A stretch of 64,000 nt of DNA from Thermoplasmatota archaeon (GCA_029259115.1 JAPDJO010000002.1:1-64000); one strand, 5' to 3'. Shown: positions 4,953 to 53,912, numbered from the stretch's first letter. The notes: a model not told the origin generated them from the letters alone. Made by a program: numbers and translations.

Positions 4953-5996
4953 ATTTTCTTGAAGAGAGAAGGATAGAGCCATCATCGCTGACGCTATTGC
5001 TGAATCTGTTGCTATCGTTACGCCAGGGCAGAGATCTATTATCATATCTGCAAATCTGTATATTCCAGTTGGTATCCCCTCTCTCGAGCCTATGAGGAAA
5101 TTCGTCCTTTTTTCCTTTATAACCATTTCAGCGAGATCTTTGGAAACTCTGCTAATAGGTCTTCCTTCTGGCTCGAAGACGATTAATTTTTCATTCTTTC
5201 TCTCCCTAACAGCTTCGTAGAGATTTTGGACATAAACATCTACCTTCCTGGGCGTATGAGAATATACCTTCCTTTGAATCTTGTATCTGCTTTCGATTCC
5301 TTGATATATCCCTTCCAAAAACTCTTTTAGCTCATTGGCCTCACATCTCCCTATTGGAGAGATGATAAGTTCTCCTATTTCAAAGGTTTGAGCCTCTCTC
5401 CCTATCCTTATGCCCATCTCCTTTGAAGCCTGGACATTTCCCAGATAGGGCATTTGAAAAATACTAACCTTTCTAAAGAAATTTCTTATTTCTATCTTCT
5501 CCTTGCTTTTTTTCTTTGGAAATTCCTTCCCATCAATTACTCCGATATAGGCATAATCTCCTAAGATTTCAACAAAGACCACCTTTTCTGGAAAATCCAG
5601 ATTAACCTCTTTGTTGGTCTTTTTCCTTATAATATCTCCAACCAAAACATTGACATCTATACTAGAGAAACTATGTTTACCTCTCCTCGTTGTTCTTACC
5701 GCAAAACAACCATCTATCTCTCCAATTAATGAATCCAAACTTTCAGATATAGATTTTAGATCTGCCTTGCTCACAATCTTAACTGGAAAAACCTTCTCTG
5801 CTTCTGGTAAGCTATCTTTTATAATGTTTGCAGCATCTCTCTTACTCGAGGATACTAAAACCAATCCAGAATAATTCAGAGGTTTTGGAAGAACCTTTGA
5901 ATCTGGGATTAGATCCTCTATAAGACTAGCGACAATATTTTCATATCCCCTCTTTGTTTTGACTATAACCTTGACTTCTTTGAAATCAAACATCAT
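4926..5996 (-). CDS. THUMP domain plus SPOUT RNA methyltransferase (AF2226-like)
   Basis: THUMP (FAVRTTRRGKHSFSS...VNLDFPEKVVFVEI) followed by SPOUT knot (VFEPEG, FLIGSREGIP, DLCPGVTIATD). Start taken at ATG 5996. Confidence 0.8.
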   Translation of the reverse strand: MMFDFKEVKVIVKTKRGYENIVASLIEDLIPDSKVLPKPLNYSGLVLVSSSKRDAANIIKDSLPEAEKVFPVKIVSKADLKSISESLDSLIGEIDGCFAVRTTRRGKHSFSSIDVNVLVGDIIRKKTNKEVNLDFPEKVVFVEILGDYAYIGVIDGKEFPKKKSKEKIEIRNFFRKVSIFQMPYLGNVQASKEMGIRIGREAQTFEIGELIISPIGRCEANELKEFLEGIYQGIESRYKIQRKVYSHTPRKVDVYVQNLYEAVRERKNEKLIVFEPEGRPISRVSKDLAEMVIKEKRTNFLIGSREGIPTGIYRFADMIIDLCPGVTIATDSAIASAMMALSFSLQENLDRFSKIP

Positions 5997-6282
5997 ATCA
6001 GATTTAGAATAAACTGGAGAAAGATAAAAAATTCGTAAAGACATTAATATGATACAAACAAATAGCAAGACGCAATCGCTTACAGCTTTTTATCTAATCA
6101 TAAATCAACTGAAAGAATCTAGAATAGAAAGATGTAAAAATCTGAAGTTTGTCGAGACAGAAATCAAGAAGTTTTTAATTTAACAGAGAAAGAAAATAGG
6201 AAAATTACTTGACGAGATGGAAAATCCTTGCACCCCCAAATCTATTTAAATTTTTAAGGGATAAAGAAGAAGGGGAAGGAAA

Positions 6283-7170
6283 GTGAATAAAGATATCACC
6301 CTCGTATTGGGGCTGGTGATCATATTTCTAATAGCCCTAACAGGATGTACAGAAACACAAACTGAAAATGCACTGCCACAGACACCATCAGGAGAACAAC
6401 AAGAGGAAACACAGAATCTTAAACCCGTAGCTATCATAAATGTAGATAAAACAAGTGGTGATGCACCATTAACCGTTACTTTTGATGGCTCTCAGAGTTA
6501 TGATCCAGATGGAGAGATAGTGAACTATACATGGTATTTCCCAGCAGAATTGGATAAAAGACAGAAAATAGAGAATAGCACAAGATATGGAAAAACAGTA
6601 TCCCATACATTTTTTGAAAGTGGAAAGAAGATTGTGGAATTAAGAGTTATAGATAACAACGGATCTTCTGCATGGGCTGAAATCAATATCACAGTCAATG
6701 AAGCACCACAATTAGGATCAAGAATGAATCCAGCACCAATAGGAACATCTTTGATATATAATGTAACAGATAGTTGGCTCTATGGAGATTATTCTGTTAA
6801 AATAACAGTTTTGCAAGTCATAAGGGGATCTCAAGCATGGCAGATGATACATGATGCAAATATGTTTAATGATCCGCCAGAACAGGGATATGAGTATATT
6901 CTTGCAAAAATTAGATTTGAATATCTCTGGAACTCAGATCCAAATCAAGATATAGATATATCGCAATATTCCTTCGATGTCTTTTCAGAGGATGGTGTAA
7001 AATATGATGAGCCGATAATTGTTGCACCAGATCCACAACTATCTACAACTCTCTATCCCGGTGGAATCAAAGAAGGATGGGGAGCATATCAGGTTGCCAT
7101 AGATGATGAGCATCCATTACTCGTATATGATCAAATACATGGTGGTGTATGGTTCAAACTATACTATTAA
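6283..7170 (+). CDS. Secreted lipoprotein with PKD domain and C-terminal DUF4352-like Ig domain
   Basis: Signal with lipobox ALTGC. PKD motif APLTVTFDGSQSYDPDGEIVNYTWYF. GSRMNPAPIG and LYPGGIKEGW in the C-domain. Confidence 0.75.
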   Translation: MNKDITLVLGLVIIFLIALTGCTETQTENALPQTPSGEQQEETQNLKPVAIINVDKTSGDAPLTVTFDGSQSYDPDGEIVNYTWYFPAELDKRQKIENSTRYGKTVSHTFFESGKKIVELRVIDNNGSSAWAEINITVNEAPQLGSRMNPAPIGTSLIYNVTDSWLYGDYSVKITVLQVIRGSQAWQMIHDANMFNDPPEQGYEYILAKIRFEYLWNSDPNQDIDISQYSFDVFSEDGVKYDEPIIVAPDPQLSTTLYPGGIKEGWGAYQVAIDDEHPLLVYDQIHGGVWFKLYY

Positions 7171-46973: not shown

Positions 46974-47558
46974 ATGATGAGAGAAGCAGGGAGTACAGGA
47001 ATTGCATCGGCTATCCTTCTGATAGCGATACTACTCATGGGCAGTAGTGCAATCTATACAACAATAAGTCAGGATAGCATATCTTCAGGTGATTTCGAAA
47101 ATAAGGTAAATGAAATACTAGATGACATAACCTCATATTTCCTAGTAAAAGAAGGCTATGCCAAAACAGACGGGAACGAAATCAAAATACTCTTACTGGT
47201 TAAACCTATCTTTGATGATCCCATCTCAATATCAAATCTCACTCTTCAGGTAATTGATGATGATTCTATTCATGTGTTGAAACTTCACGACATATATGAA
47301 ACAGGGAAAGATTTGTTTGATAGCGACCTCTGGAGCGAGATTAATCAGAGCTTTTGTATAATCCCTGTTGTTGATAGAGATGAATCCATTTCCAAAGAAA
47401 AGACGGTGAATGGAGATTTGTTTTATGTGGCCTTGTGCCTAAGAGGGATAGAAATAGGCGAAGATATTGAGATTTCTATTCTATCGGAGACAGGGTCAAT
47501 TTCTGTATTAACCATCGATATACCCTTCTCCACGTCTGATGTTTTCAAGATATACTAA
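46974..47558 (+). CDS. Divergent archaellin-like / type IV pilin-like protein
   Basis: REAG|STGIASAILLIAILLMG signal; C-terminus VNGDLFYVAL...ISILSETGS....IDIP resembles archaellin C-termini. Confidence 0.65.
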   Translation: MMREAGSTGIASAILLIAILLMGSSAIYTTISQDSISSGDFENKVNEILDDITSYFLVKEGYAKTDGNEIKILLLVKPIFDDPISISNLTLQVIDDDSIHVLKLHDIYETGKDLFDSDLWSEINQSFCIIPVVDRDESISKEKTVNGDLFYVALCLRGIEIGEDIEISILSETGSISVLTIDIPFSTSDVFKIY

Positions 47559-49093
47559 TGCCTAAAATATCTCTGTCCAGTAAATACCATTATTAGCCCA
47601 TGCTCATCCGCCGCCTTTATAACTTCTTCATCCCTTATTGATCCTCCTGGCTGAACTATGGCTTTTACTCCAGCCTCCGCAGCAAGATCGACAGCATCTC
47701 TAAATGGAAAGAACGCATCACTCGCCATTATAGAACCTTTTATCCTGTCTTTCCCTTTATGGGTAGCGATAAATGTTGCATCAACTCTAGCTGTTTGTCC
47801 TCCTCCTATAGCTACCGTATGAGTATCTTTTACAAAGACTACAGCATTTGATTTCACATGTTTTACACATTTCACTGCAAATACCATGGATCTTATATCC
47901 TCAGCCGAAGGCTTCCTCTTTGTAACGACTTTCCAATCCTTTGGATCTATTTCTTTAACGTCTCTATCCTGAATCAACATACCTCCAGTCACACTCCTAA
48001 AACAGATATCTTCGGACTTATCATCGATATCTGGTACTTCTAAGAGACGAAGCCTTTTCTTTTTACCGAGAATCTGAAGAGCCCTTTCTGTAAACTTAGG
48101 GGCAACTATAACTTCTAAGAAGTATTTGGATAGATCTTCTGCTAGCTTAGAATCAACTTCTCTATTAAATGCTACAACTCCGCCAAATGGAGAGTATGTA
48201 TCTGTTTCATAGGCTTTTATCCAAGCATCAAAAATGTTATCTGATGAGGCTATCCCGCAAGGAGTAGCATGTTTGATAATAACGGCTGTTGGTTCATCAA
48301 ACTCTTTTACACATTCTAGAGCAGCATCAGCATCTAGTATGTTGTTGTAGGATAGCTCCTTTCCCTGAAGTTTTCTAGCATTTGCTATACATCCTTCTGC
48401 TCTCTCTGGTAGGATTTTGTAGAATGCACCTTCCTGATGCGGATTCTCTCCGTATCTAGTCTTTTGTATCAATTCAAATGTTAGAGTTAAATTCTTTGGA
48501 AATTTCTCGTTAAGCAACCTTTTTCTTAGATAATTTGATATTATCGCATCATATCTTGCAACATGTTCAAAAGCCTCGACAGCTAGCTTTTTTCTGAACT
48601 CTTCATCTATCCCTATCTTAAGCTTTTCTATTAGCTCATCGTATCTGGATGGATTTACAACAATAAGTACATCCTCAAAATTCTTTGCTGCAGATCTTAT
48701 GAGCGTAGGTCCACCGATATCTATGTTCTCTATAACTTCATGCAAATCCACATTTTCCTTCTTTATGATCTCTTCAAAAGGATAGAGATTACATACCACT
48801 AGATCTATGGGTTTCATTGATAAATTCCTTAGAATGTTCAGATGTTCTTCTTTCTCTCTCTTTGCAAGGATGCCTGCATGAATCTTGGGGTGCAAAGTTT
48901 TTACCCTTCCATCTAATATCTCTGGAAAGCCGGTAAAATCTGATAATTCTGTGACATCTATTCCCTTTTCTTTCAAGAATCTATACGTTCCTCCGGTAGA
49001 TATTATGTCAAAGTTGAGTTTCTGAAGCTCCTTGGCTAAAAAATCTACCCCTCTTTTATCATAGACACTTATCAGTGCTAATCTCTTTCCCAT
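47555..49093 (-). CDS. purH: Bifunctional AICAR transformylase/IMP cyclohydrolase
   Basis: ALISVYDK, GRVKTLHP, IDIGGPT, RYGENPHQ, SYNNILD, MASDAFFPF, RYFRH. Confidence 0.96.
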   Translation of the reverse strand: MGKRLALISVYDKRGVDFLAKELQKLNFDIISTGGTYRFLKEKGIDVTELSDFTGFPEILDGRVKTLHPKIHAGILAKREKEEHLNILRNLSMKPIDLVVCNLYPFEEIIKKENVDLHEVIENIDIGGPTLIRSAAKNFEDVLIVVNPSRYDELIEKLKIGIDEEFRKKLAVEAFEHVARYDAIISNYLRKRLLNEKFPKNLTLTFELIQKTRYGENPHQEGAFYKILPERAEGCIANARKLQGKELSYNNILDADAALECVKEFDEPTAVIIKHATPCGIASSDNIFDAWIKAYETDTYSPFGGVVAFNREVDSKLAEDLSKYFLEVIVAPKFTERALQILGKKKRLRLLEVPDIDDKSEDICFRSVTGGMLIQDRDVKEIDPKDWKVVTKRKPSAEDIRSMVFAVKCVKHVKSNAVVFVKDTHTVAIGGGQTARVDATFIATHKGKDRIKGSIMASDAFFPFRDAVDLAAEAGVKAIVQPGGSIRDEEVIKAADEHGLIMVFTGQRYFRH

Positions 49094-49140: not shown

Positions 49141-49896
49141 TTAATTAGAAGACTTGCTGAATTTGATAGCCTCTTCCATTTCGATTTCTCCTTTGAGAAC
49201 TTTAAGTGCTAATTCTCTGGATATAGTTATTCTACCACCGCTTAGGATCCTACTTTTTCTCTGCACTTCCTTTATTTCTCCATCGGTAAATCTTCTGTCT
49301 CCATTTCCTCTTACCGATCTACCTCTTGATTTTGCTATCCTTATAGCAGCTACCTCGTTTCTTTCCATTCTTGAGTATCCAGTTCTCTGACTCGTTTTTG
49401 TTTCATCTACTATTTCAATTCTGATATCAACATCTCTTAAACCGTCTATGATTCTATCCCTGTAAATTCTGGCATCATGGCCTATCCTTACTATCCTCTC
49501 CTTGTCTGAAAAGTCACTCAGAATTTTTCTTACTATTCCTAAAGCCTCATCTGTGGATGATGCACACCAGGTTCTTAGAACAGTTTCACCAGAGAGGAGG
49601 GCTATACCAGGGTACTCCCCTGGATCTATTCCTATCACGATCTCGTCACTATTTCCATGTAAAATTTGCATAGCCCTATCCAATGCAGAATCTATGTCTC
49701 TAAAACAGTCAGCATATACGACCTTCCTTCCGCCTATATCTTTACCCTCAGCTGAAGATGTTATAATGACACCAACCTTATGCGGTATTCTATCTATGGA
49801 GTGTAAATGAATATAATCTATGCCTCTTTCATTCATCTTATTCATTATGTCATGTGCTAGCGAGAAATCCTTTGTGTATATCCCCACTATCTTCAT
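49141..49896 (-). CDS. Putative YqgF/RuvC-like (RNase H fold) nuclease
   Basis: IGIDPG..PGIA, VRIG, IEIVDETKTS and NEVAAIRIA align with YqgF-type motifs. ATGA overlap with the cca stop codon. Confidence 0.55.
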   Translation of the reverse strand: MKIVGIYTKDFSLAHDIMNKMNERGIDYIHLHSIDRIPHKVGVIITSSAEGKDIGGRKVVYADCFRDIDSALDRAMQILHGNSDEIVIGIDPGEYPGIALLSGETVLRTWCASSTDEALGIVRKILSDFSDKERIVRIGHDARIYRDRIIDGLRDVDIRIEIVDETKTSQRTGYSRMERNEVAAIRIAKSRGRSVRGNGDRRFTDGEIKEVQRKSRILSGGRITISRELALKVLKGEIEMEEAIKFSKSSN

Positions 49897-51980
49897 CTTT
49901 CCCACGGCATCTTGTTTTCTATATACTCTGTCCAGAATAATTTCAAATCATCCCTTAATAAATCTTTCGATGTAAGGATGCTAAATTTACCATCTTTTAC
50001 AACTTCCTCTATATCTTTTCCGAGGCTTAATTTTCTCAGATTTTTAGCGAGAAAATCATCCAATCTATTATATTTCCTTTTTACCTCTACATACCACCTT
50101 CCATCTTTGAGATAAGGTCCTTTAACTACTTCTTTGCTGTTTCTCCATTTTTCCAAGAAAGCTTCAACATGCCTTTTTTCTTTTTCTGGAGGTCCCCTAT
50201 GTATGTATGTTTCTGGTAGTTCTATCTCTTTTGGCTTGAGAAGAATGTATATCTTGTCTTCAGTGACCACAAACCTTCCATCCTCTATCTCGAAATCATT
50301 TTCTTCACACGATTTAACTATCCTTCTCAAAGTCTTCTTTGCCTGTGGGTACAGATTATCTGGAATTATATCCGGCTTTTCTATTTCTACCCCGATAAAA
50401 CCATCTAGATGTTTTTTTATTTCCTCATCAGGTAGAGGTTTTATGGTTTGAGGGAAAAAGAATCTCTCGCTCGGCTTTTCCAGATATTCTTTGCATGCTC
50501 TTTTGAATATCTCTAGTTTCTCCTCGGATACGGCTGATGCAACATTTCTGTTTGGATCTACCGGATCTATAAAAACTAAAGGATCATTAAAAGCTGGCGA
50601 AGGAACTTCCTTGAGTTTTATCACCTCCCCCTTTTTCCAGTCTTTTGCATTCCTAAGAACATTTTCAAAGGATCCATATTTTAGTATCAGGAGTTCACAT
50701 AGATAACCCGAAAAACCTTCTACCTCTGCCTCTGCACCATAACAACCTATACCTTTTAGAAATCTTTTTAACAATCTTACATCCTTTCTTTTTCTGAAAG
50801 GTAGATTTTCTCTTATGAAATCTGTATGAAAGGGAGTTCTATCAACCGCAGATATCTTTTCAGATGCTTTTTTCACTCTATAGCAAGGAACAATCTCGAC
50901 ATCATATCCCTTGTACTTTCCCCTTATATAGGGATGCTCCGCATATCTTTCTTCATGCTTTTCCAGTATTTTTCTGCCTATCAAAAGTCCCTTTCTTTCC
51001 ATTTCCTTTCTCGGTGTGTTTGGAGGGAACAGTAAAAATATGTCTATATCTACGGAATCTCTAAGATAAGTATCTTTAGCAACTGATCCAACCAATTTTG
51101 GTACAGCTTTTATGTTCTCTTTCTTGATTTCCTTTTCTATTTTGTCTAAGAGCTCTAAAACTATCCTGTTCAGTTTCCTTCTCTCAGCAAAACTCGGTGT
51201 AATCTTTCTCAAAACCTCTTTTTCTATGCTGTTCTCGTAATTCACTACTCCGCAAGCTATCAAAAATATAGATATCCCTCCAATAACATCTGTTATCCAG
51301 TGTATGGATAGATATAGCACTGAGAATATCACACCTAGAGCAGATATCAAAGTGATGTAGAAATATCTTCTATCTCTCATAAAACTCGATGACTTTACTA
51401 GGAGAAGTGCCATTGCAACATGTAAGGATGGAAAACAGTTATTTTTCGTTGTTACTGCATAAAAGAACTTCTCAATCCCTGGTATGATCTTACCCAAATG
51501 GAAATCTATGCCTAAATATGTGTACACATTTGTTACAGGTAGAAATAGATAAAAGGGCAGGGCGCAGAGATAGATTATAACCAAACCATATGATAAACTC
51601 CTCATGGCTTTTTCCTCGTTGCCAATCAAGAATAGGAGTGGAGAAAACCATAGGGTAAATGGGTAGAGGATCATATAGAAGAATACTGAGATAATGGAGA
51701 TCAAGTTAGAAGTATTTTGAGATAGATATTCGAAAAAACCTTTCTCATAAGAATAGAAGACCGGAGCAAAATCTTTCCCTATTAGATTGGTGGTAAATCT
51801 ATCTATGAAGTTCACTTCAAACAAGTGGAAAAGTACAACCAGAATTAATATAATCAGATGTAATCTGAGATTGAAAAATCCTTCCATGTAATTTTTCTTA
51901 TCTCTCGGAAAGAAGATTGTAAGGAATATGAGAAAAAGGACAAGATTTGCTGTACCCATGTAGAGAATCCAAGATTCCAT
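49893..51980 (-). CDS. cca: Fusion: PAP2/IPC-synthase-like membrane domain plus archaeal class I CCA-adding enzyme
   Basis: Residues 1-247 have about 6 TM helices with NCFPSLH and SVLYLSIHWITD. The remainder has LVGSVAKDTYL..DIDIF, RYAEHPY, DIVP-like EIVPC, SAVDRTPFH, GFSGYLCELL, DPVDPNRNVA. Confidence 0.9.
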   Translation of the reverse strand: MESWILYMGTANLVLFLIFLTIFFPRDKKNYMEGFFNLRLHLIILILVVLFHLFEVNFIDRFTTNLIGKDFAPVFYSYEKGFFEYLSQNTSNLISIISVFFYMILYPFTLWFSPLLFLIGNEEKAMRSLSYGLVIIYLCALPFYLFLPVTNVYTYLGIDFHLGKIIPGIEKFFYAVTTKNNCFPSLHVAMALLLVKSSSFMRDRRYFYITLISALGVIFSVLYLSIHWITDVIGGISIFLIACGVVNYENSIEKEVLRKITPSFAERRKLNRIVLELLDKIEKEIKKENIKAVPKLVGSVAKDTYLRDSVDIDIFLLFPPNTPRKEMERKGLLIGRKILEKHEERYAEHPYIRGKYKGYDVEIVPCYRVKKASEKISAVDRTPFHTDFIRENLPFRKRKDVRLLKRFLKGIGCYGAEAEVEGFSGYLCELLILKYGSFENVLRNAKDWKKGEVIKLKEVPSPAFNDPLVFIDPVDPNRNVASAVSEEKLEIFKRACKEYLEKPSERFFFPQTIKPLPDEEIKKHLDGFIGVEIEKPDIIPDNLYPQAKKTLRRIVKSCEENDFEIEDGRFVVTEDKIYILLKPKEIELPETYIHRGPPEKEKRHVEAFLEKWRNSKEVVKGPYLKDGRWYVEVKRKYNRLDDFLAKNLRKLSLGKDIEEVVKDGKFSILTSKDLLRDDLKLFWTEYIENKMPWER

Positions 51981-52540
51981 TATTTCTCCTCCAATTTTAC
52001 CTCCCTGATAGTGGAATATATGGGTCCTTTTTCAGTAAGAACACTCTTTTTCAATTTTATCGATTCAACAATCTGCTCTCCAAAATACTCTGTTGAGTAC
52101 TCTCCTAGGAGGGATGTAAGTTTGTTCTTGTCTCCCACACTTTTTACTCTTGCTATCGTGAGATGGGGAGAGAAATCTCTTTTTTCTTTACTATAACCTA
52201 ATTTTTCTAGTCCCTCCTCTAGTCTTCTAAATATCACTTCCATTTCTCTTCCTTCGGTTCCTATCCATATCACATTTATCCTCCTCAGATTAGGAAAGGC
52301 GCCGACGCCCTGTAGCTTTATTTTGAAAGGCTTTACATCTTTTACTGCATCTCGCATGTATCTCTCTATCTCATCTATGATTTCTTCTTCAGTTTCTCCT
52401 AGAAACTTCAAGGTTACATGAAGATTTTCAAGCTCAACCATTTTTAGCTTAGCATTTATTTTCTTCAAATTCTCCGAGAACTCCTTTATCCTCTCTGTAG
52501 GATCTATATCTATAGCTATGAATCCCCTGAAGGTTGGCAT
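51980..52540 (-). CDS. thpR: RNA 2',3'-cyclic phosphodiesterase (2H family, LigT)
   Basis: RGFIAID, two HxT motifs (LHVTLKFLG, PHLTIARV), SVLTEKGPIY. Confidence 0.92.
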   Translation of the reverse strand: MPTFRGFIAIDIDPTERIKEFSENLKKINAKLKMVELENLHVTLKFLGETEEEIIDEIERYMRDAVKDVKPFKIKLQGVGAFPNLRRINVIWIGTEGREMEVIFRRLEEGLEKLGYSKEKRDFSPHLTIARVKSVGDKNKLTSLLGEYSTEYFGEQIVESIKLKKSVLTEKGPIYSTIREVKLEEK

Positions 52541-52655: not shown

Positions 52656-53078
52656 ATGGACACGATAGTACAGGTTGACGCAAAGGGAAGGATTCTAATA
52701 CCAAGTGAATTCAGAGAAGTTCTCGATATAAAAGGAGGAGATGAGATCTTGCTCACGCTCGACGCTAAAACAAAAACGCTGATCGTGAGCCCTATTTACA
52801 GCAAAGAAGGCAGATTCGTGAAAATTGAAATAGAATTTGATGATACAATCGGAGCTCTAGCAAAAATAGCGGATTATATTGCCAGAAAAAGGATAGATCT
52901 TGTCATGACGGAATCAAAAAGTTTTCAGAGATGGAAAAGAGCCAGATGGATTATCATAGCTGATATCTCCAGAAGTAATTCTAACATTAAGGAGTTACAG
53001 GAGGGTCTTCTTGGTATGGATTTTGTGAAAAATGTCAGTATAGAAGAGATAGAGAGGGATTTAGTTCATCGTGGCTAG
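52656..53078 (+). CDS. AbrB/MazE/SpoVT-type DNA-binding domain plus ACT domain regulator
   Basis: VQVDAKGRILIPSEFRE..DIKGGD, then ACT motif DTIGALAKIADYIA..IDL. Confidence 0.85.
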   Translation: MDTIVQVDAKGRILIPSEFREVLDIKGGDEILLTLDAKTKTLIVSPIYSKEGRFVKIEIEFDDTIGALAKIADYIARKRIDLVMTESKSFQRWKRARWIIIADISRSNSNIKELQEGLLGMDFVKNVSIEEIERDLVHRG

Positions 53079-53138: not shown

Positions 53139-53912
53139 ATGAGGAAGATATCTGCAGTTTTGGTTGTTGGTATGTTGGGGCTAGTGACAGTTTCAGGGAT
53201 TGTAGCCTGTGCCAAAGAAAACATACCTAAGGAAAATGAGGCCCAACCCAGAGATATCAAACCACCTATACTCGAGATCTGTATGAGAAAATACTACAAC
53301 ATCAATTCCCCAGCTATATTGACTAGGATCGTGCTGAGAAATCCAAATCCATTCACTATATGGGTCAGCCAGATGGATCCTAGGAAAAACTCTCTTGATA
53401 TCAGAATAACTTTACCAAATGGAACCGTAATATACTGTTTGGCAGAAAGTACGCACATGATTCCAATACCAGTACCTATTCTACCATACTCAACATACTT
53501 CCTAGTCATAAACCTTAAGGCTCCAGTATTCGGATGGTGGGTTGATCAGCCTGGTGGAAAGGAATGGATTTATGACTGGTCACTCAAGGGAAAATACACT
53601 ATTTGGGTGTGGTATCGGTCCTTTGGCACCTCTGAATTCGAAACAGGCTGGAGAGGAGAACTGGAAGCAGAAAGAGAATTCTTCATCTGGGGAAACAAAA
53701 CAGAGAAGGAGGAATCTTTCCAAGAAAAAGAAGGAAAGACGAACAAGATAGAGAAATCTCCTGAAACAACCAAACAGTCTTTGTCTACCTTCACCAAGGT
53801 TCTCCAGAAACTTTTCCGGTCTACAAATAGGAACAGGTTTGCTTTCCCACCTACAGCGAAGTTATTTTCAAGAATCCTTGGATATCAACTAAAGAAACTC
53901 CTCTATTCCTAG
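53139..53912 (+). CDS. Secreted hypothetical protein (Ig-like)
   Basis: N-terminal signal, beta-rich core, charged linker and amphipathic C-terminal tail; GGAGGTGA SD. Confidence 0.65.
   Translation: MRKISAVLVVGMLGLVTVSGIVACAKENIPKENEAQPRDIKPPILEICMRKYYNINSPAILTRIVLRNPNPFTIWVSQMDPRKNSLDIRITLPNGTVIYCLAESTHMIPIPVPILPYSTYFLVINLKAPVFGWWVDQPGGKEWIYDWSLKGKYTIWVWYRSFGTSEFETGWRGELEAEREFFIWGNKTEKEESFQEKEGKTNKIEKSPETTKQSLSTFTKVLQKLFRSTNRNRFAFPPTAKLFSRILGYQLKKLLYS

What the first reader, a model, noticed from the sequence alone, without database searches (positions are those of the whole stretch)
49141..52540. PAP2 membrane domain fused to the CCA-adding enzyme inside a thpR - cca - YqgF-like operon: candidate tRNA 3'-end repair module
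Seen: one uninterrupted 695-aa ORF joins a 6-TM PAP2-type domain (PSLH, S..YL..HW..D; no obvious KxxxxxxRP motif) to a complete class I CCA enzyme. It is coupled to thpR upstream (TAATG overlap) and to an RNase H-fold protein downstream (ATGA overlap). All three tRNAs in the window lack encoded CCA, so the activity should be essential. Known: archaeal CCA enzymes are soluble and often lie next to thpR. ThpR opens 2',3'-cyclic phosphates, and E. coli CCA carries an HD phosphatase for end healing. Inference: cyclic phosphodiesterase, phosphatase and CCA addition could form a repair chain, or CCA addition is membrane-tethered here. Caveat: PAP2 active sites usually face outward and act on lipids.
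Basis: partly seen in the sequence, partly recalled or inferred. Interest (0 to 1): 0.75.

Follow-up and report, generated by a model that had tools for sequence, protein, structure and literature searches.

The report
Membrane-anchored CCA-adding enzyme in archaea
In this uncultured sediment and vent archaeon the only enzyme that puts the CCA end on tRNAs is built into the cell membrane through a lipid-enzyme-like domain, an arrangement conserved across its phylum that I did not find described in print.

Summary
One 695-aa ORF (51980..49893, minus strand) joins a PAP2_3 membrane domain to a complete archaeal class I CCA-adding enzyme. It is the only cca gene found in a 98.7%-complete genome. 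Contigs from four public runs cross the junction without an indel. The fusion is not an oddity of this genome. thpR-PAP2-cca is a conserved cluster in Thermoplasmatota. Of 80 species loci found with the PAP2 domain, 6 are fused and 71 have PAP2 and cca as separate genes whose stop and start lie -37 to +7 nt apart. The fused form was found in seven GTDB families, with DNA from 39% to 72% G+C.

The repair-chain reading is not supported. The PAP2 domain has seven predicted helices and resembles IPC synthases (Aur1, Z 16). Its His-His-Asp site lies one membrane helix away from the cytoplasmic CCA domain, so it faces outward. The positive-inside rule agrees. Part of the high-GC fused clade has lost triad residues. 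A soluble Tpt1 homologue could remove 2'-phosphates instead.

Best reading: a membrane-anchored CCA enzyme joined to an outward-facing lipid enzyme, with the purpose of the link unknown. The downstream "RNase H-fold" gene remains an unnamed family. Binding of the split proteins could not be tested.

The parts
51980..52540 (-). thpR, RNA 2',3'-cyclic phosphodiesterase (186 aa). It carries both extended motifs, HVTLKF and HLTIAR. Its stop overlaps the start of the next gene (TAATG).
   Evidence: (TIGR02258, 152.7 bits against cut-off 65.7). Directly upstream of PAP2 in 77 of 80 related loci.
49893..51980 (-). Single 695-aa ORF: PAP2_3 membrane domain fused to the class I CCA-adding enzyme. It is the only cca gene found in the genome.
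   Evidence: one TIGR03671 match in G000, 98.7% complete. AF2 model pLDDT 93.1, pTM 0.87. Contigs of 4 runs bridge the junction without an indel.
51231..51980 (-). PAP2_3 domain, residues 1-250. Seven predicted membrane helices (3-23, 31-67, 92-119, 123-146, 186-198, 204-223, 229-249), N-terminus outside and C-terminus inside.
   Evidence: VIA-align: IPC synthase 9vj4_A, Z 16.8; Aur1 9ivc_A, Z 16.2. Positive-inside count.
51288..51431 (-). PAP2 C2 and C3 motifs: P184-S-L-H187 at the outer start of helix 5, and H227-W-I-T-D231 at the outer start of helix 7. No C1 KxxxxxxRP motif.
   Evidence: H187, H227 and D231 invariant in 42 of 42 rows of A3. (H187 in 37 of 52, H227 in 49 of 52, D231 in 48 of 52 fused proteins).
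49893..51230 (-). Class I CCA-adding enzyme domain, residues 251-695. It starts within a few residues of the end of helix 7.
   Evidence: Foldseek best match A. fulgidus CCA enzyme 1r89: E 1.9e-34, 34% identity, TM-score on the target 0.88.
51042..51089 (-). Nucleotidyltransferase signature G298-S299 ... D311-x-D313 of the CCA domain.
   Evidence: Invariant columns G298, S299, D311 and D313 in 22 fused proteins. The meaning of the motif is recalled, not tested.
49141..49896 (-). Downstream 251-aa gene (d254 in this report) of an unnamed Thermoplasmatota family. Its start overlaps the cca stop (ATGA). It has a conserved IGIDPG motif and acidic residues. An RNase H-like fold is possible but unproven.
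   Evidence: Follows cca in 34 of 80 related loci and in the family f1 loci that extend past cca (L005-L011). DUF460 below cut-off in 14 of 32 members. 1157 homologues found, and the 120 listed have no Pfam family.

Best explanation
The gene encodes an integral membrane protein with two separate active sites on opposite faces of the membrane.

Residues 251-695 are an ordinary archaeal class I CCA-adding enzyme. It sits in the cytoplasm and must serve all tRNAs, because it is the only cca gene found and the tRNA genes lack an encoded CCA. Residues 1-250 are a seven-helix PAP2_3 domain of the IPC-synthase/sphingomyelin-synthase type. Its His187/His227/Asp231 site faces the outside and most likely acts on a phospholipid or polyprenyl phosphate head group, not on RNA.

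The CCA enzyme is therefore held at the inner membrane surface. This happens by covalent fusion here, and probably by association in relatives where the two genes are separate but translationally coupled.

thpR-cca is the older tRNA 3'-end pair, and the PAP2 gene sits between the two. ThpR opens 2',3'-cyclic ends to 2'-phosphates. Their removal is more plausibly done by the genome's soluble Tpt1 homologue than by the PAP2 domain.

Shown: the architecture, its conservation, that it is the only cca gene found, and the fold.
Inferred: the side of the PAP2 site, the lipid substrate, complex formation in the split forms, and that anchoring itself is selected.
Unknown: the benefit of anchoring.
For: Architecture and sole copy.

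tRNA genes: by a naive end test 31 of 41 lack CCA. Six of the 10 flagged are acceptor-stem CC plus discriminator A followed by a T run. The other four lie on small contigs.

Conservation:
- Of the 7 family f1 genomes, 6 are fused and the seventh is broken over two contigs.
- Of 80 loci found with the PAP2 profile, 6 are fused, 71 are adjacent and split, 1 is masked by N, 1 ends at the contig end, and 1 has cca 1.5 kb away.
- In all 71 split loci the PAP2 stop and the cca start lie -37 to +7 nt apart. In 30 the stop is followed directly by an in-frame ATG.
- Fused forms also occur in families f4 and f10 and in f15 (8 of 8), f22, f32 and f36. thpR is upstream in 6 of 6 f15 loci, at 66-72% G+C against 39% in the window.

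Topology:
- One helix (229-249) lies between H227/D231 and the CCA domain.
- Mean Lys+Arg is 7.1 in the 23 columns of loops 1, 3 and 5, against 1.0 in about 70 columns of the N-terminus and loops 2, 4 and 6, over 42 sequences.
- By my own tally of the list against the helices, about 31 of 39 invariant positions lie in outer loops or outer helix ends, and one lies in a cytoplasmic loop.

Fold: IPC synthase Z 16.8 and Aur1 Z 16.2 over residues about 29-255, above LpxE (13.7) and PgpB types. In Aur1 both termini are cytosolic and the triad lies near the luminal surface (PMC12122681, passages).

Lipid context: in families f8 and f9 the homologous PAP2_3 gene lies elsewhere in the genome (4 of 5 genomes). 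In 3 of those 4 it overlaps a GT4 glycosyltransferase gene.

Soluble 2'-phosphate candidate: Tpt1 family PF01885, 114 bits against a cut-off of 26. Archaeal A. pernix Tpt1 removes terminal 2'-PO4 (PMC6573784, abstract).

The ThpR product is a 2'-phosphomonoester (PMC4201822, abstract and passages).
Against: - No experiment and no model coordinates were available. The side of the triad is inferred from helix count, charge bias and homology, not measured.
- The link is not obligatory. Families f8 and f9 have thpR abutting cca without PAP2 (9 of 9 loci) and keep the PAP2 homologue at another locus. CCA enzymes in this class therefore work without it.
- Whether the separate proteins of family f2 bind each other was not tested, because the complex job never ran.
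- In the high-GC clade 18 of 35 fused proteins have lost at least one triad residue. The lipid activity is therefore not universally kept, and the domain may there be only an anchor or may be decaying.
- The contig from the RNA library does not prove transcription.
- No substrate can be named for the PAP2 domain. Ceramide-based lipids, the substrates of the nearest solved folds, are not expected in archaea (recalled).
Confidence: 0.65

Rival explanations
1. Frozen accident. A lipid-enzyme gene landed between thpR and cca and became translationally coupled to, and then fused with, an essential gene. It is kept only because it can no longer be removed cheaply. The two halves work independently, and anchoring brings no benefit.
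For: - Families f8 and f9 manage with thpR-cca alone and keep the PAP2 gene elsewhere, next to a glycosyltransferase gene.
- Triad residues are lost in 18 of 35 proteins of the high-GC fused clade.
- Split and fused forms differ by a single stop codon in 30 of 71 split loci.
Against: - The linkage is kept across families and classes, with G+C from 39% to 72%.
- In all 71 split loci the genes stay within -37 to +7 nt of each other, although separation would be possible.
- Between families f1 and f2 the PAP2 part is about as conserved as the essential CCA part: 46-52% against 49-51% identity in L012-L015.
- The domain fold stays conserved even where the triad is lost: D60 in 51 of 52 and E79, P184 and W228 in 52 of 52 fused proteins.
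Confidence: 0.2
2. Transmembrane coupling. The state of the outward-facing PAP2 site (substrate bound, or phosphorylated) is passed through helix 7 to the directly attached CCA head domain. Envelope or lipid status would then tune the supply of tRNAs with an intact CCA end.
For: - There is no flexible linker. The CCA N-terminal helix starts 2-3 residues after helix 7.
- pTM is 0.87 for the whole two-domain model, which suggests a fixed mutual orientation (inference).
- The link is long conserved.
Against: - No precedent known to me.
- Split forms lack the covalent connection.
- Loss of triad residues in many fused proteins.
- Nothing in the data speaks directly for regulation.
Confidence: 0.1
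3. The PAP2 domain is the phosphomonoesterase that removes the 2'- or 3'-phosphate left by ThpR, so that the fused CCA domain can rebuild the tRNA end.
For: [quoted passage not shown]
- The PAP2 gene sits exactly between thpR and cca.
- The triad is intact in 17 of 17 proteins of the window's clade.
Against: - The active-site residues are on the far side of the membrane from the CCA domain.
- The nearest folds are lipid phosphotransferases with an exoplasmic site.
- The C1 motif used by PAP2 phosphatases is absent, while the genome has a canonical PAP2 elsewhere.
- The same PAP2 family is paired with a glycosyltransferase gene in families f8 and f9.
- A Tpt1 homologue is available in the genome.
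Confidence: 0.05

Closest known systems
Archaeal class I CCA-adding enzyme (Archaeoglobus fulgidus, PDB 1R89 and complexes)
   Same: Residues 251-695 match over the full length: TIGR03671 above cut-off, Foldseek E 1.9e-34, 34% identity, TM-score on the target 0.88. Same nucleotidyltransferase signature.
   Different: The solved chains are 437-443 residues long and have no membrane part. Here a seven-helix membrane domain precedes the enzyme without a linker.
IPC synthase Aur1 and sphingomyelin-synthase-related protein SMSr (PAP2_3-type lipid phosphotransferases; PDB 9VJ4, 9IVC, 8IJQ)
   Same: Six-helix catalytic core with a His-His-Asp triad and no C1 motif. These are the best structural matches: Z 16.8, 16.2 and 12.8. 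The C-terminus is cytosolic and the triad lies near the exoplasmic surface (PMC12122681).
   Different: Only 12% identity. There is one extra N-terminal helix instead of Aur1's two. The substrate is unknown, and ceramide is not expected in archaea (recalled). No Kei1-like partner was looked for. Fused to an RNA enzyme.
Canonical membrane PAP2 phosphatases (PgpB, B. subtilis PgpB, LpxE)
   Same: Shared PAP2 fold (Z 9.3-13.7) and the C2/C3 motifs.
   Different: The C1 KxxxxxxRP motif is absent. The genome's other PAP2 gene has it.
Bacterial class II CCA enzyme with an HD domain (E. coli Cca).
   Same: One polypeptide that combines CCA addition with a phosphohydrolase-type domain.
   Different: The HD domain is soluble and shares the cytoplasm with tRNA. 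Here the second domain is membrane-embedded with an outward-facing site, and end healing is left to the separate ThpR (and possibly Tpt1).
The archaeal thpR-cca gene pair
   Same: thpR directly precedes cca in families f5, f7, f8 and f9 (11 of 11 loci). It precedes PAP2-cca here and in 77 of 80 loci.
   Different: Here, and in the fused or split families, a PAP2_3 gene is inserted between the two.

Membership tests
Archaeal class I CCA-adding enzyme (TIGR03671) | Equivalog model matched over its full length above the curated cut-off | tested here: met
   464.6 bits against 281.3; residues 252-654 on model positions 1-408 of 410
Archaeal class I CCA-adding enzyme (TIGR03671) | Head, neck, body and tail fold of the solved archaeal enzyme | tested here: met
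   Foldseek 1r89: E 1.9e-34, rmsd 2.9, TM-score on the target 0.88
Archaeal class I CCA-adding enzyme (TIGR03671) | Nucleotidyltransferase signature GS...DxD | tested here: met
   G298, S299, D311 and D313 invariant in 22 fused proteins. The definition of the motif is recalled.
Archaeal class I CCA-adding enzyme (TIGR03671) | CCA addition to tRNA lacking CCA | not testable with these tools
   Inferred from being the only TIGR03671 match in the genome and from tRNA genes without an encoded CCA
PAP2_3 (PF14378) / PAP2 superfamily | Family model above the gathering score | tested here: met
   42 bits against 27, residues 92-243. PF01569 (PAP2) is just below its cut-off: 26.5 against 27.2.
PAP2_3 (PF14378) / PAP2 superfamily | C2 (PSxH) and C3 (HxxxD) catalytic motifs | tested here: met
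   P184-S-L-H187 and H227-x-x-x-D231, invariant in 42 of 42 rows of A3
Canonical PAP2 lipid phosphate phosphatases (PgpB type) | C1 motif KxxxxxxRP | tested here: not met
   No such motif in the alignments. It is present in the genome's other PAP2 gene.
IPC synthase / sphingomyelin synthase type phosphotransferases | Six-helix core with a His-His-Asp triad, best structural neighbours | tested here: met
   9vj4_A: Z 16.8, 215 residues aligned, rmsd 3.7. 9ivc_A: Z 16.2, 223 residues aligned.
IPC synthase / sphingomyelin synthase type phosphotransferases | Transfer of a phospho-head group from a phospholipid to ceramide | not testable with these tools
   No assay possible. Substrate unknown.
ThpR / LigT 2H phosphoesterase (TIGR02258) | Equivalog model above cut-off, and two HxT motifs (HxTxxF and HxTxxR) | tested here: met
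   152.7 bits against 65.7. HVTLKF and HLTIAR are in the translation. Motif definition from the PMC4201822 abstract.
DUF460 (PF04312) / RNase H-fold nuclease, for the downstream gene | Family model above the gathering score | tested here: not met
   14.4 bits against 28, E 0.032. 14 of 32 family members match, all weakly, best E 0.0026.
DUF460 (PF04312) / RNase H-fold nuclease, for the downstream gene | RNase H-like fold | not tested
A PDB profile search found nothing (best E 0.58). Nearest named Atlas cluster is DUF460 at 0.77, a lead only.

The most novel reading that the evidence does not exclude
The PAP2-like protein and the CCA-adding enzyme form an obligate transmembrane unit, fused or as two coupled subunits. 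An outward-facing lipid-phosphate reaction would control, or be controlled by, tRNA 3'-end synthesis inside the cell. This would be a direct line from the state of the cell envelope to the pool of tRNAs with an intact CCA end, in a wall-less archaeal lineage.
Probability: 0.1. Interest if true: 0.85.

Novelty: new variant of a known kind. Interest (0 to 1): 0.62.

Why it matters
As far as I recall, CCA-adding enzymes are treated as soluble enzymes in all domains of life. Here the only cca gene found in the genome encodes an integral membrane protein. The same arrangement, fused or as tightly coupled neighbouring genes, runs through several families and classes of Thermoplasmatota.

If the protein is not cleaved, every tRNA of these cells would have to visit the membrane to be completed or repaired. 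That bears on how translation and RNA repair are organised in space in archaea.

It also gives a clean natural experiment. The sampled loci show fused forms (f1, f4, f10, f15, f22, f32, f36), split forms (f2) and unlinked forms (f8, f9) of the same two proteins.

For annotation, public records name these 700-aa proteins simply 'CCA tRNA nucleotidyltransferase', which hides the membrane half.

Tried and rejected
1. Complex prediction on the split pair of locus L013 (CCA alignment A5, PAP2 alignment A4). The job never ran. Binding of the separate proteins is therefore untested.

2. Foldseek with the full-length model listed only CCA and poly(A) polymerase type enzymes. The PAP2 domain had to be folded alone.

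3. Locus L047 first counted as a fusion. It has a run of 100 N at the junction and is undetermined. It was still labelled 'fused' in the tree.

4. The 1045-aa open frame over cca in L106 is an artefact of high G+C. Pfam finds no PAP2 domain in that frame.

5. CCA-domain tree (quick search, rooted on f6, compositional heterogeneity flagged, several supports of 82-93). Fused f15, f10 and f4 branch as a grade, followed by (f8+f9 without PAP2) beside (f1 fused + f2 split). This fits an old fusion with a later split and a later loss, but equally fits several independent fusions. I draw no order of events from it.

6. Downstream gene: Pfam, NCBIfam, PDB sequence and profile searches, the ESM Atlas and a profile search of 5.8 billion proteins gave no named relative.

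7. The naive test for encoded CCA over-calls. Six of its 10 positives are stem CC plus discriminator A.

8. Literature. Searches for 'CCA-adding enzyme'+'PAP2', 'tRNA nucleotidyltransferase'+'transmembrane'+'Thermoplasmatota' and 'CCA-adding'+'transmembrane'+'archaeal'+'fused' returned no paper whose title or abstract start concerns this architecture; I read listings only. A search for a paper on the thpR/ligT-cca neighbourhood found none in the held library. My recollection that the pair is common in other archaeal phyla is untested.

9. P0360 and P0381 (about 700 aa) looked like fusions by length, but their C-terminal parts are not CCA enzymes.


Full report
WHAT IS THERE

On the minus strand lie thpR (52540..51980, 186 aa), a 695-aa ORF (51980..49893) and a 251-aa ORF (49896..49141). 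After a 47-nt gap comes purH (49093..47555). The thpR stop overlaps the next start as TAATG. The stop of the 695-aa ORF overlaps the next start as ATGA.

Pfam places PAP2_3 at residues 92-243 (42 bits, cut-off 27) and the three domains of the archaeal CCA enzyme at 278-668. NCBIfam's equivalog model TIGR03671 matches residues 252-654 at 464.6 bits (cut-off 281.3). thpR matches TIGR02258 at 152.7 bits (cut-off 65.7).

The models show seven helices, not six. The fold of the third gene is unproven (see below).

IS THE FUSION REAL?

Contigs of four public runs from four studies each bridge the junction near 51230 without an insertion or deletion. Three are DNA runs and one is an RNA library, all labelled vent, sediment or marine metagenomes. 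One of them may be the source sample.

More telling is that the same uninterrupted ORF is present in relatives:
- 6 of the 7 other genomes of the family; the seventh is broken over two contigs.
- 51 further proteins of 640 aa or more among the 120 best database hits, down to 36% identity.

In the window's family the order thpR, PAP2-CCA, 251-aa gene, purH is kept in all loci as far as the contigs reach.

IT IS THE ONLY CCA ENZYME FOUND

The genome (1.40 Mb, 98.7% complete, 5.5% contamination) has one TIGR03671 match, which is this gene.

Of 41 predicted tRNA genes, 31 lack a CCA end by a naive test. Six of the 10 flagged are acceptor-stem CC plus discriminator A followed by a T run. The four remaining ones sit on small contigs and duplicate tRNAs found elsewhere in the genome, so they may be contamination. 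The three tRNA genes of the window lack an encoded CCA.

HOW WIDE IS THE LINKAGE?

A scan of one genome per species with the PAP2-domain profile gave 80 loci, all from Thermoplasmata or Thermoplasmatota MAGs. They break down as follows:
- 6 carry the fusion.
- 71 carry a separate PAP2 gene directly followed by cca.
- 1 is masked by N at the junction.
- 1 ends at the contig end.
- 1 has cca 1.5 kb further on.

In all 71 split loci the PAP2 stop and the cca start lie between -37 and +7 nt apart. In 30 the stop codon (TAA, TAG or TGA) is followed at once by an in-frame ATG, so split and fused forms differ by one codon.

thpR lies directly upstream in 77 of the 80 loci. Two have no room for it and one has none within 4 kb. 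A homologue of the 251-aa gene follows cca in 34 of 80, which is a lower bound because some loci are cut short.

Elsewhere in the class, families f4 and f10 have the fusion with thpR upstream. Families f8 (5 of 5 loci), f9 (4 of 4), f5 and f7 (1 each) have thpR abutting cca with no PAP2 gene between them. In other classes of the phylum the fusion is present in f15 (8 of 8 genomes), f22, f32 and f36. In f15, thpR is upstream in 6 of 6 loci, at 66-72% G+C against 39% here.

Among the 150 best cluster representatives (50% identity) of a 1.84-billion-protein library, five are PAP2-CCA fusions.

thpR-cca is therefore the older pair. The PAP2 gene is an insert between them that has been kept, fused or tightly coupled, over a deep divergence. 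A quick CCA-domain tree is compatible with one old fusion followed by a split in f2 and a loss in f8/f9. It does not exclude several fusions, and I leave the order of events open (one row, L047, was mislabelled as fused in that run).

WHAT IS THE PAP2 DOMAIN?

Folded alone with 41 stand-alone homologues, it gives a confident model (pLDDT 93.4, pTM 0.91).

Its best solved neighbours are lipid phosphotransferases:
- An inositol phosphorylceramide synthase, 9vj4_A: Z 16.8, 215 residues aligned, rmsd 3.7.
- Yeast Aur1, 9ivc_A: Z 16.2, 223 residues aligned.

These rank ahead of LpxE (13.7), SMSr (12.8), B. subtilis PgpB (11.9) and E. coli PgpB (9.3-11.2). Like IPC and sphingomyelin synthases, the domain has the C2 and C3 motifs but no C1.

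The genome holds a second PAP2 gene with all three canonical motifs on contig C10. The classical lipid-phosphate phosphatase role is therefore probably covered elsewhere.

In families f8 and f9 a homologue of the cca-linked PAP2 (profile E 1e-50 to 6e-27) lies at another locus in 4 of 5 genomes. In 3 of those 4 its end overlaps the start of a GT4 glycosyltransferase gene. That points to membrane glycolipid or phospholipid head-group chemistry.

WHICH SIDE DOES THE SITE FACE?

The CCA domain needs tRNA, ATP and CTP, so it must be cytoplasmic. Three lines of evidence place the PAP2 site on the other face.

- Helix count. In both models the helices are 3-23, 31-67, 92-119, 123-146, 186-198, 204-223 and 229-249. 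H227 and D231 sit at the start of the last helix and H187 at the start of the fifth. Exactly one membrane crossing separates the triad from residue 250.
- Charge bias. Over 42 sequences, mean Lys+Arg is 7.1 in the 23 columns of loops 1, 3 and 5, against 1.0 in about 70 columns of the N-terminus and loops 2, 4 and 6. This is the positive-inside pattern for N-terminus outside and C-terminus inside.
- Homology. [quoted passage not shown] Residues 29-255 of the model span Aur1 residues 16-340, which takes in that core.

By my own tally of the invariant positions of the stand-alone alignment against the model's helices, about 31 of 39 lie in outer loops or outer helix ends, and one lies in a cytoplasmic loop. 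I could not read model coordinates, so the side is inferred, not measured.

CONSEQUENCE FOR THE REPAIR-CHAIN IDEA

However, an outward-facing site cannot reach tRNA. In addition, H187 is replaced (Q, T, K, N, P or D) in 15 of 52 fused proteins, H227 in 3 and D231 in 4. All of these replacements lie in the high-GC clade, where 18 of 35 proteins have lost at least one triad residue. The 17 proteins of the window's clade keep all three.

The genome also has a Tpt1/KptA homologue (PF01885, 114 bits, cut-off 26). The archaeal Aeropyrum pernix Tpt1 removes terminal 2'- and 3'-phosphates from RNA (PMC6573784, abstract). Tpt1 is a soluble candidate for that step.

MOST LIKELY MECHANISM

The protein is a membrane-integral enzyme with two independent sites: an outward-facing lipid phosphotransferase or phosphatase site, and a cytoplasmic CCA-adding enzyme held at the membrane surface. 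There are only two or three residues between helix 7 and the first CCA helix. The pTM of 0.87 for the whole model suggests a fixed mutual orientation; this is my inference.

thpR and cca form the tRNA 3'-end pair. The 251-aa gene may add a nuclease.

Evidence that the link is selected and not accidental:
- It persists across classes and base compositions.
- All 71 split loci show tight translational coupling.
- The PAP2 part is conserved about as well as the essential CCA part between families f1 and f2: 46-52% against 49-51% identity.

Evidence against an obligatory link:
- Families f8 and f9 do without it.
- The triad has decayed in part of the high-GC clade.

What anchoring is for is unknown. 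I rate the anchored, two-faced enzyme at 0.65, a frozen accident at 0.2, transmembrane regulation at 0.1 and the tRNA-phosphatase chain at 0.05.

THE THIRD GENE

The 251-aa protein belongs to a family of at least 1157 database proteins. The 120 listed are 251-273 aa long, carry no Pfam family, and are named 'hypothetical' where a name is given. It has invariant G89, D91-P92-G93, E161, E165 and other acidic positions.

Its only link to a named family is DUF460:
- 14.4 bits against a cut-off of 28 for this protein.
- 14 of 32 members match, best E 0.0026.
- It is the only such signal in the genome.
- The nearest named Atlas cluster scores 0.77.

PDB sequence and profile searches found nothing. 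An RNase H-like nuclease is a fair guess, but it has not been shown.

NOVELTY

The proteins are in public databases under the name 'CCA tRNA nucleotidyltransferase'. Three full-text searches returned no paper whose title or abstract start concerns a membrane-bound or PAP2-fused CCA enzyme (listings only). Supplements and subscription journals were not covered.

The record titles I saw say Thermoplasmata, Thermoplasmatales or Thermoplasmatota archaeon. No earlier finding on this architecture was returned.

I class it as a new variant of a known kind: a known enzyme in an undescribed, conserved membrane-bound form.

WHAT REMAINS OPEN

- Whether the split proteins bind each other. The complex job never ran.
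- The side of the triad by direct measurement.
- The lipid substrate.
- The order of fusion and split events.
- The fold of the third gene.

Noticed in passing
window 52656-53078 (+): Divergently transcribed 140-aa gene with an AbrB/MazE-type DNA-binding domain (PF04014, E 1.4e-7) and a weak ACT domain match. It is possibly a small-molecule-responsive regulator beside the thpR promoter region.
   Followed up: no
G000:C10:42388-42579; L003:1447-2241 (-): Second PAP2 gene of the genome (264 aa) with all three canonical motifs: KVLIHRPRP, PSGH and SRIYLNVHWLSD. It is likely the ordinary lipid or polyprenyl phosphate phosphatase.
   Followed up: partly
G000:C5:56386-56880 (-); L125: Tpt1/KptA RNA 2'-phosphotransferase homologue (PF01885, 114 bits). 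It lies about 120 nt from a tRNA-Lys gene at C5:56189-56262.
   Followed up: partly
L121:3996-5923, L122:2823-4764, L123:3905-5940: In families f8 and f9 the stand-alone homologue of the cca-linked PAP2 gene overlaps the start of a GT4 glycosyltransferase gene (PF00534 + PF13439) in 3 of 4 loci. An aminoacyl-tRNA synthetase or CTP synthase gene follows.
   Followed up: partly
L113:5558-6484 and L106 about 5939-6460: In high-GC family f6, 2 of 5 loci have a PAP2-like gene about 0.9-1.1 kb upstream of cca on the same strand, and L113 has an unnamed 231-aa ORF between them. No thpR was detected beside cca in any of the 5. A DUF2797 gene follows cca in L105 and L107.
   Followed up: partly
P0360, P0381: Two PAP2_3 proteins of about 700 aa have a C-terminal part of about 440 aa that is not a CCA enzyme and has no Pfam family. 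This is another, unexplained fusion of this membrane domain.
   Followed up: partly
G000 contigs C29, C46, C48, C88: Four tRNA genes with a seemingly encoded CCA end sit on small contigs and duplicate anticodons found elsewhere in the genome (Arg-gcg, Val-tac, Gln-ctg, Thr-cgt). They may belong to the 5.5% contamination.
   Followed up: no
L063:3794-5295: One relative has about 1.5 kb inserted between the PAP2 gene and cca. The content was not examined.
   Followed up: no
window 53139-53912 (+): 257-aa ORF with a hydrophobic N-terminus and no Pfam family.
   Followed up: no
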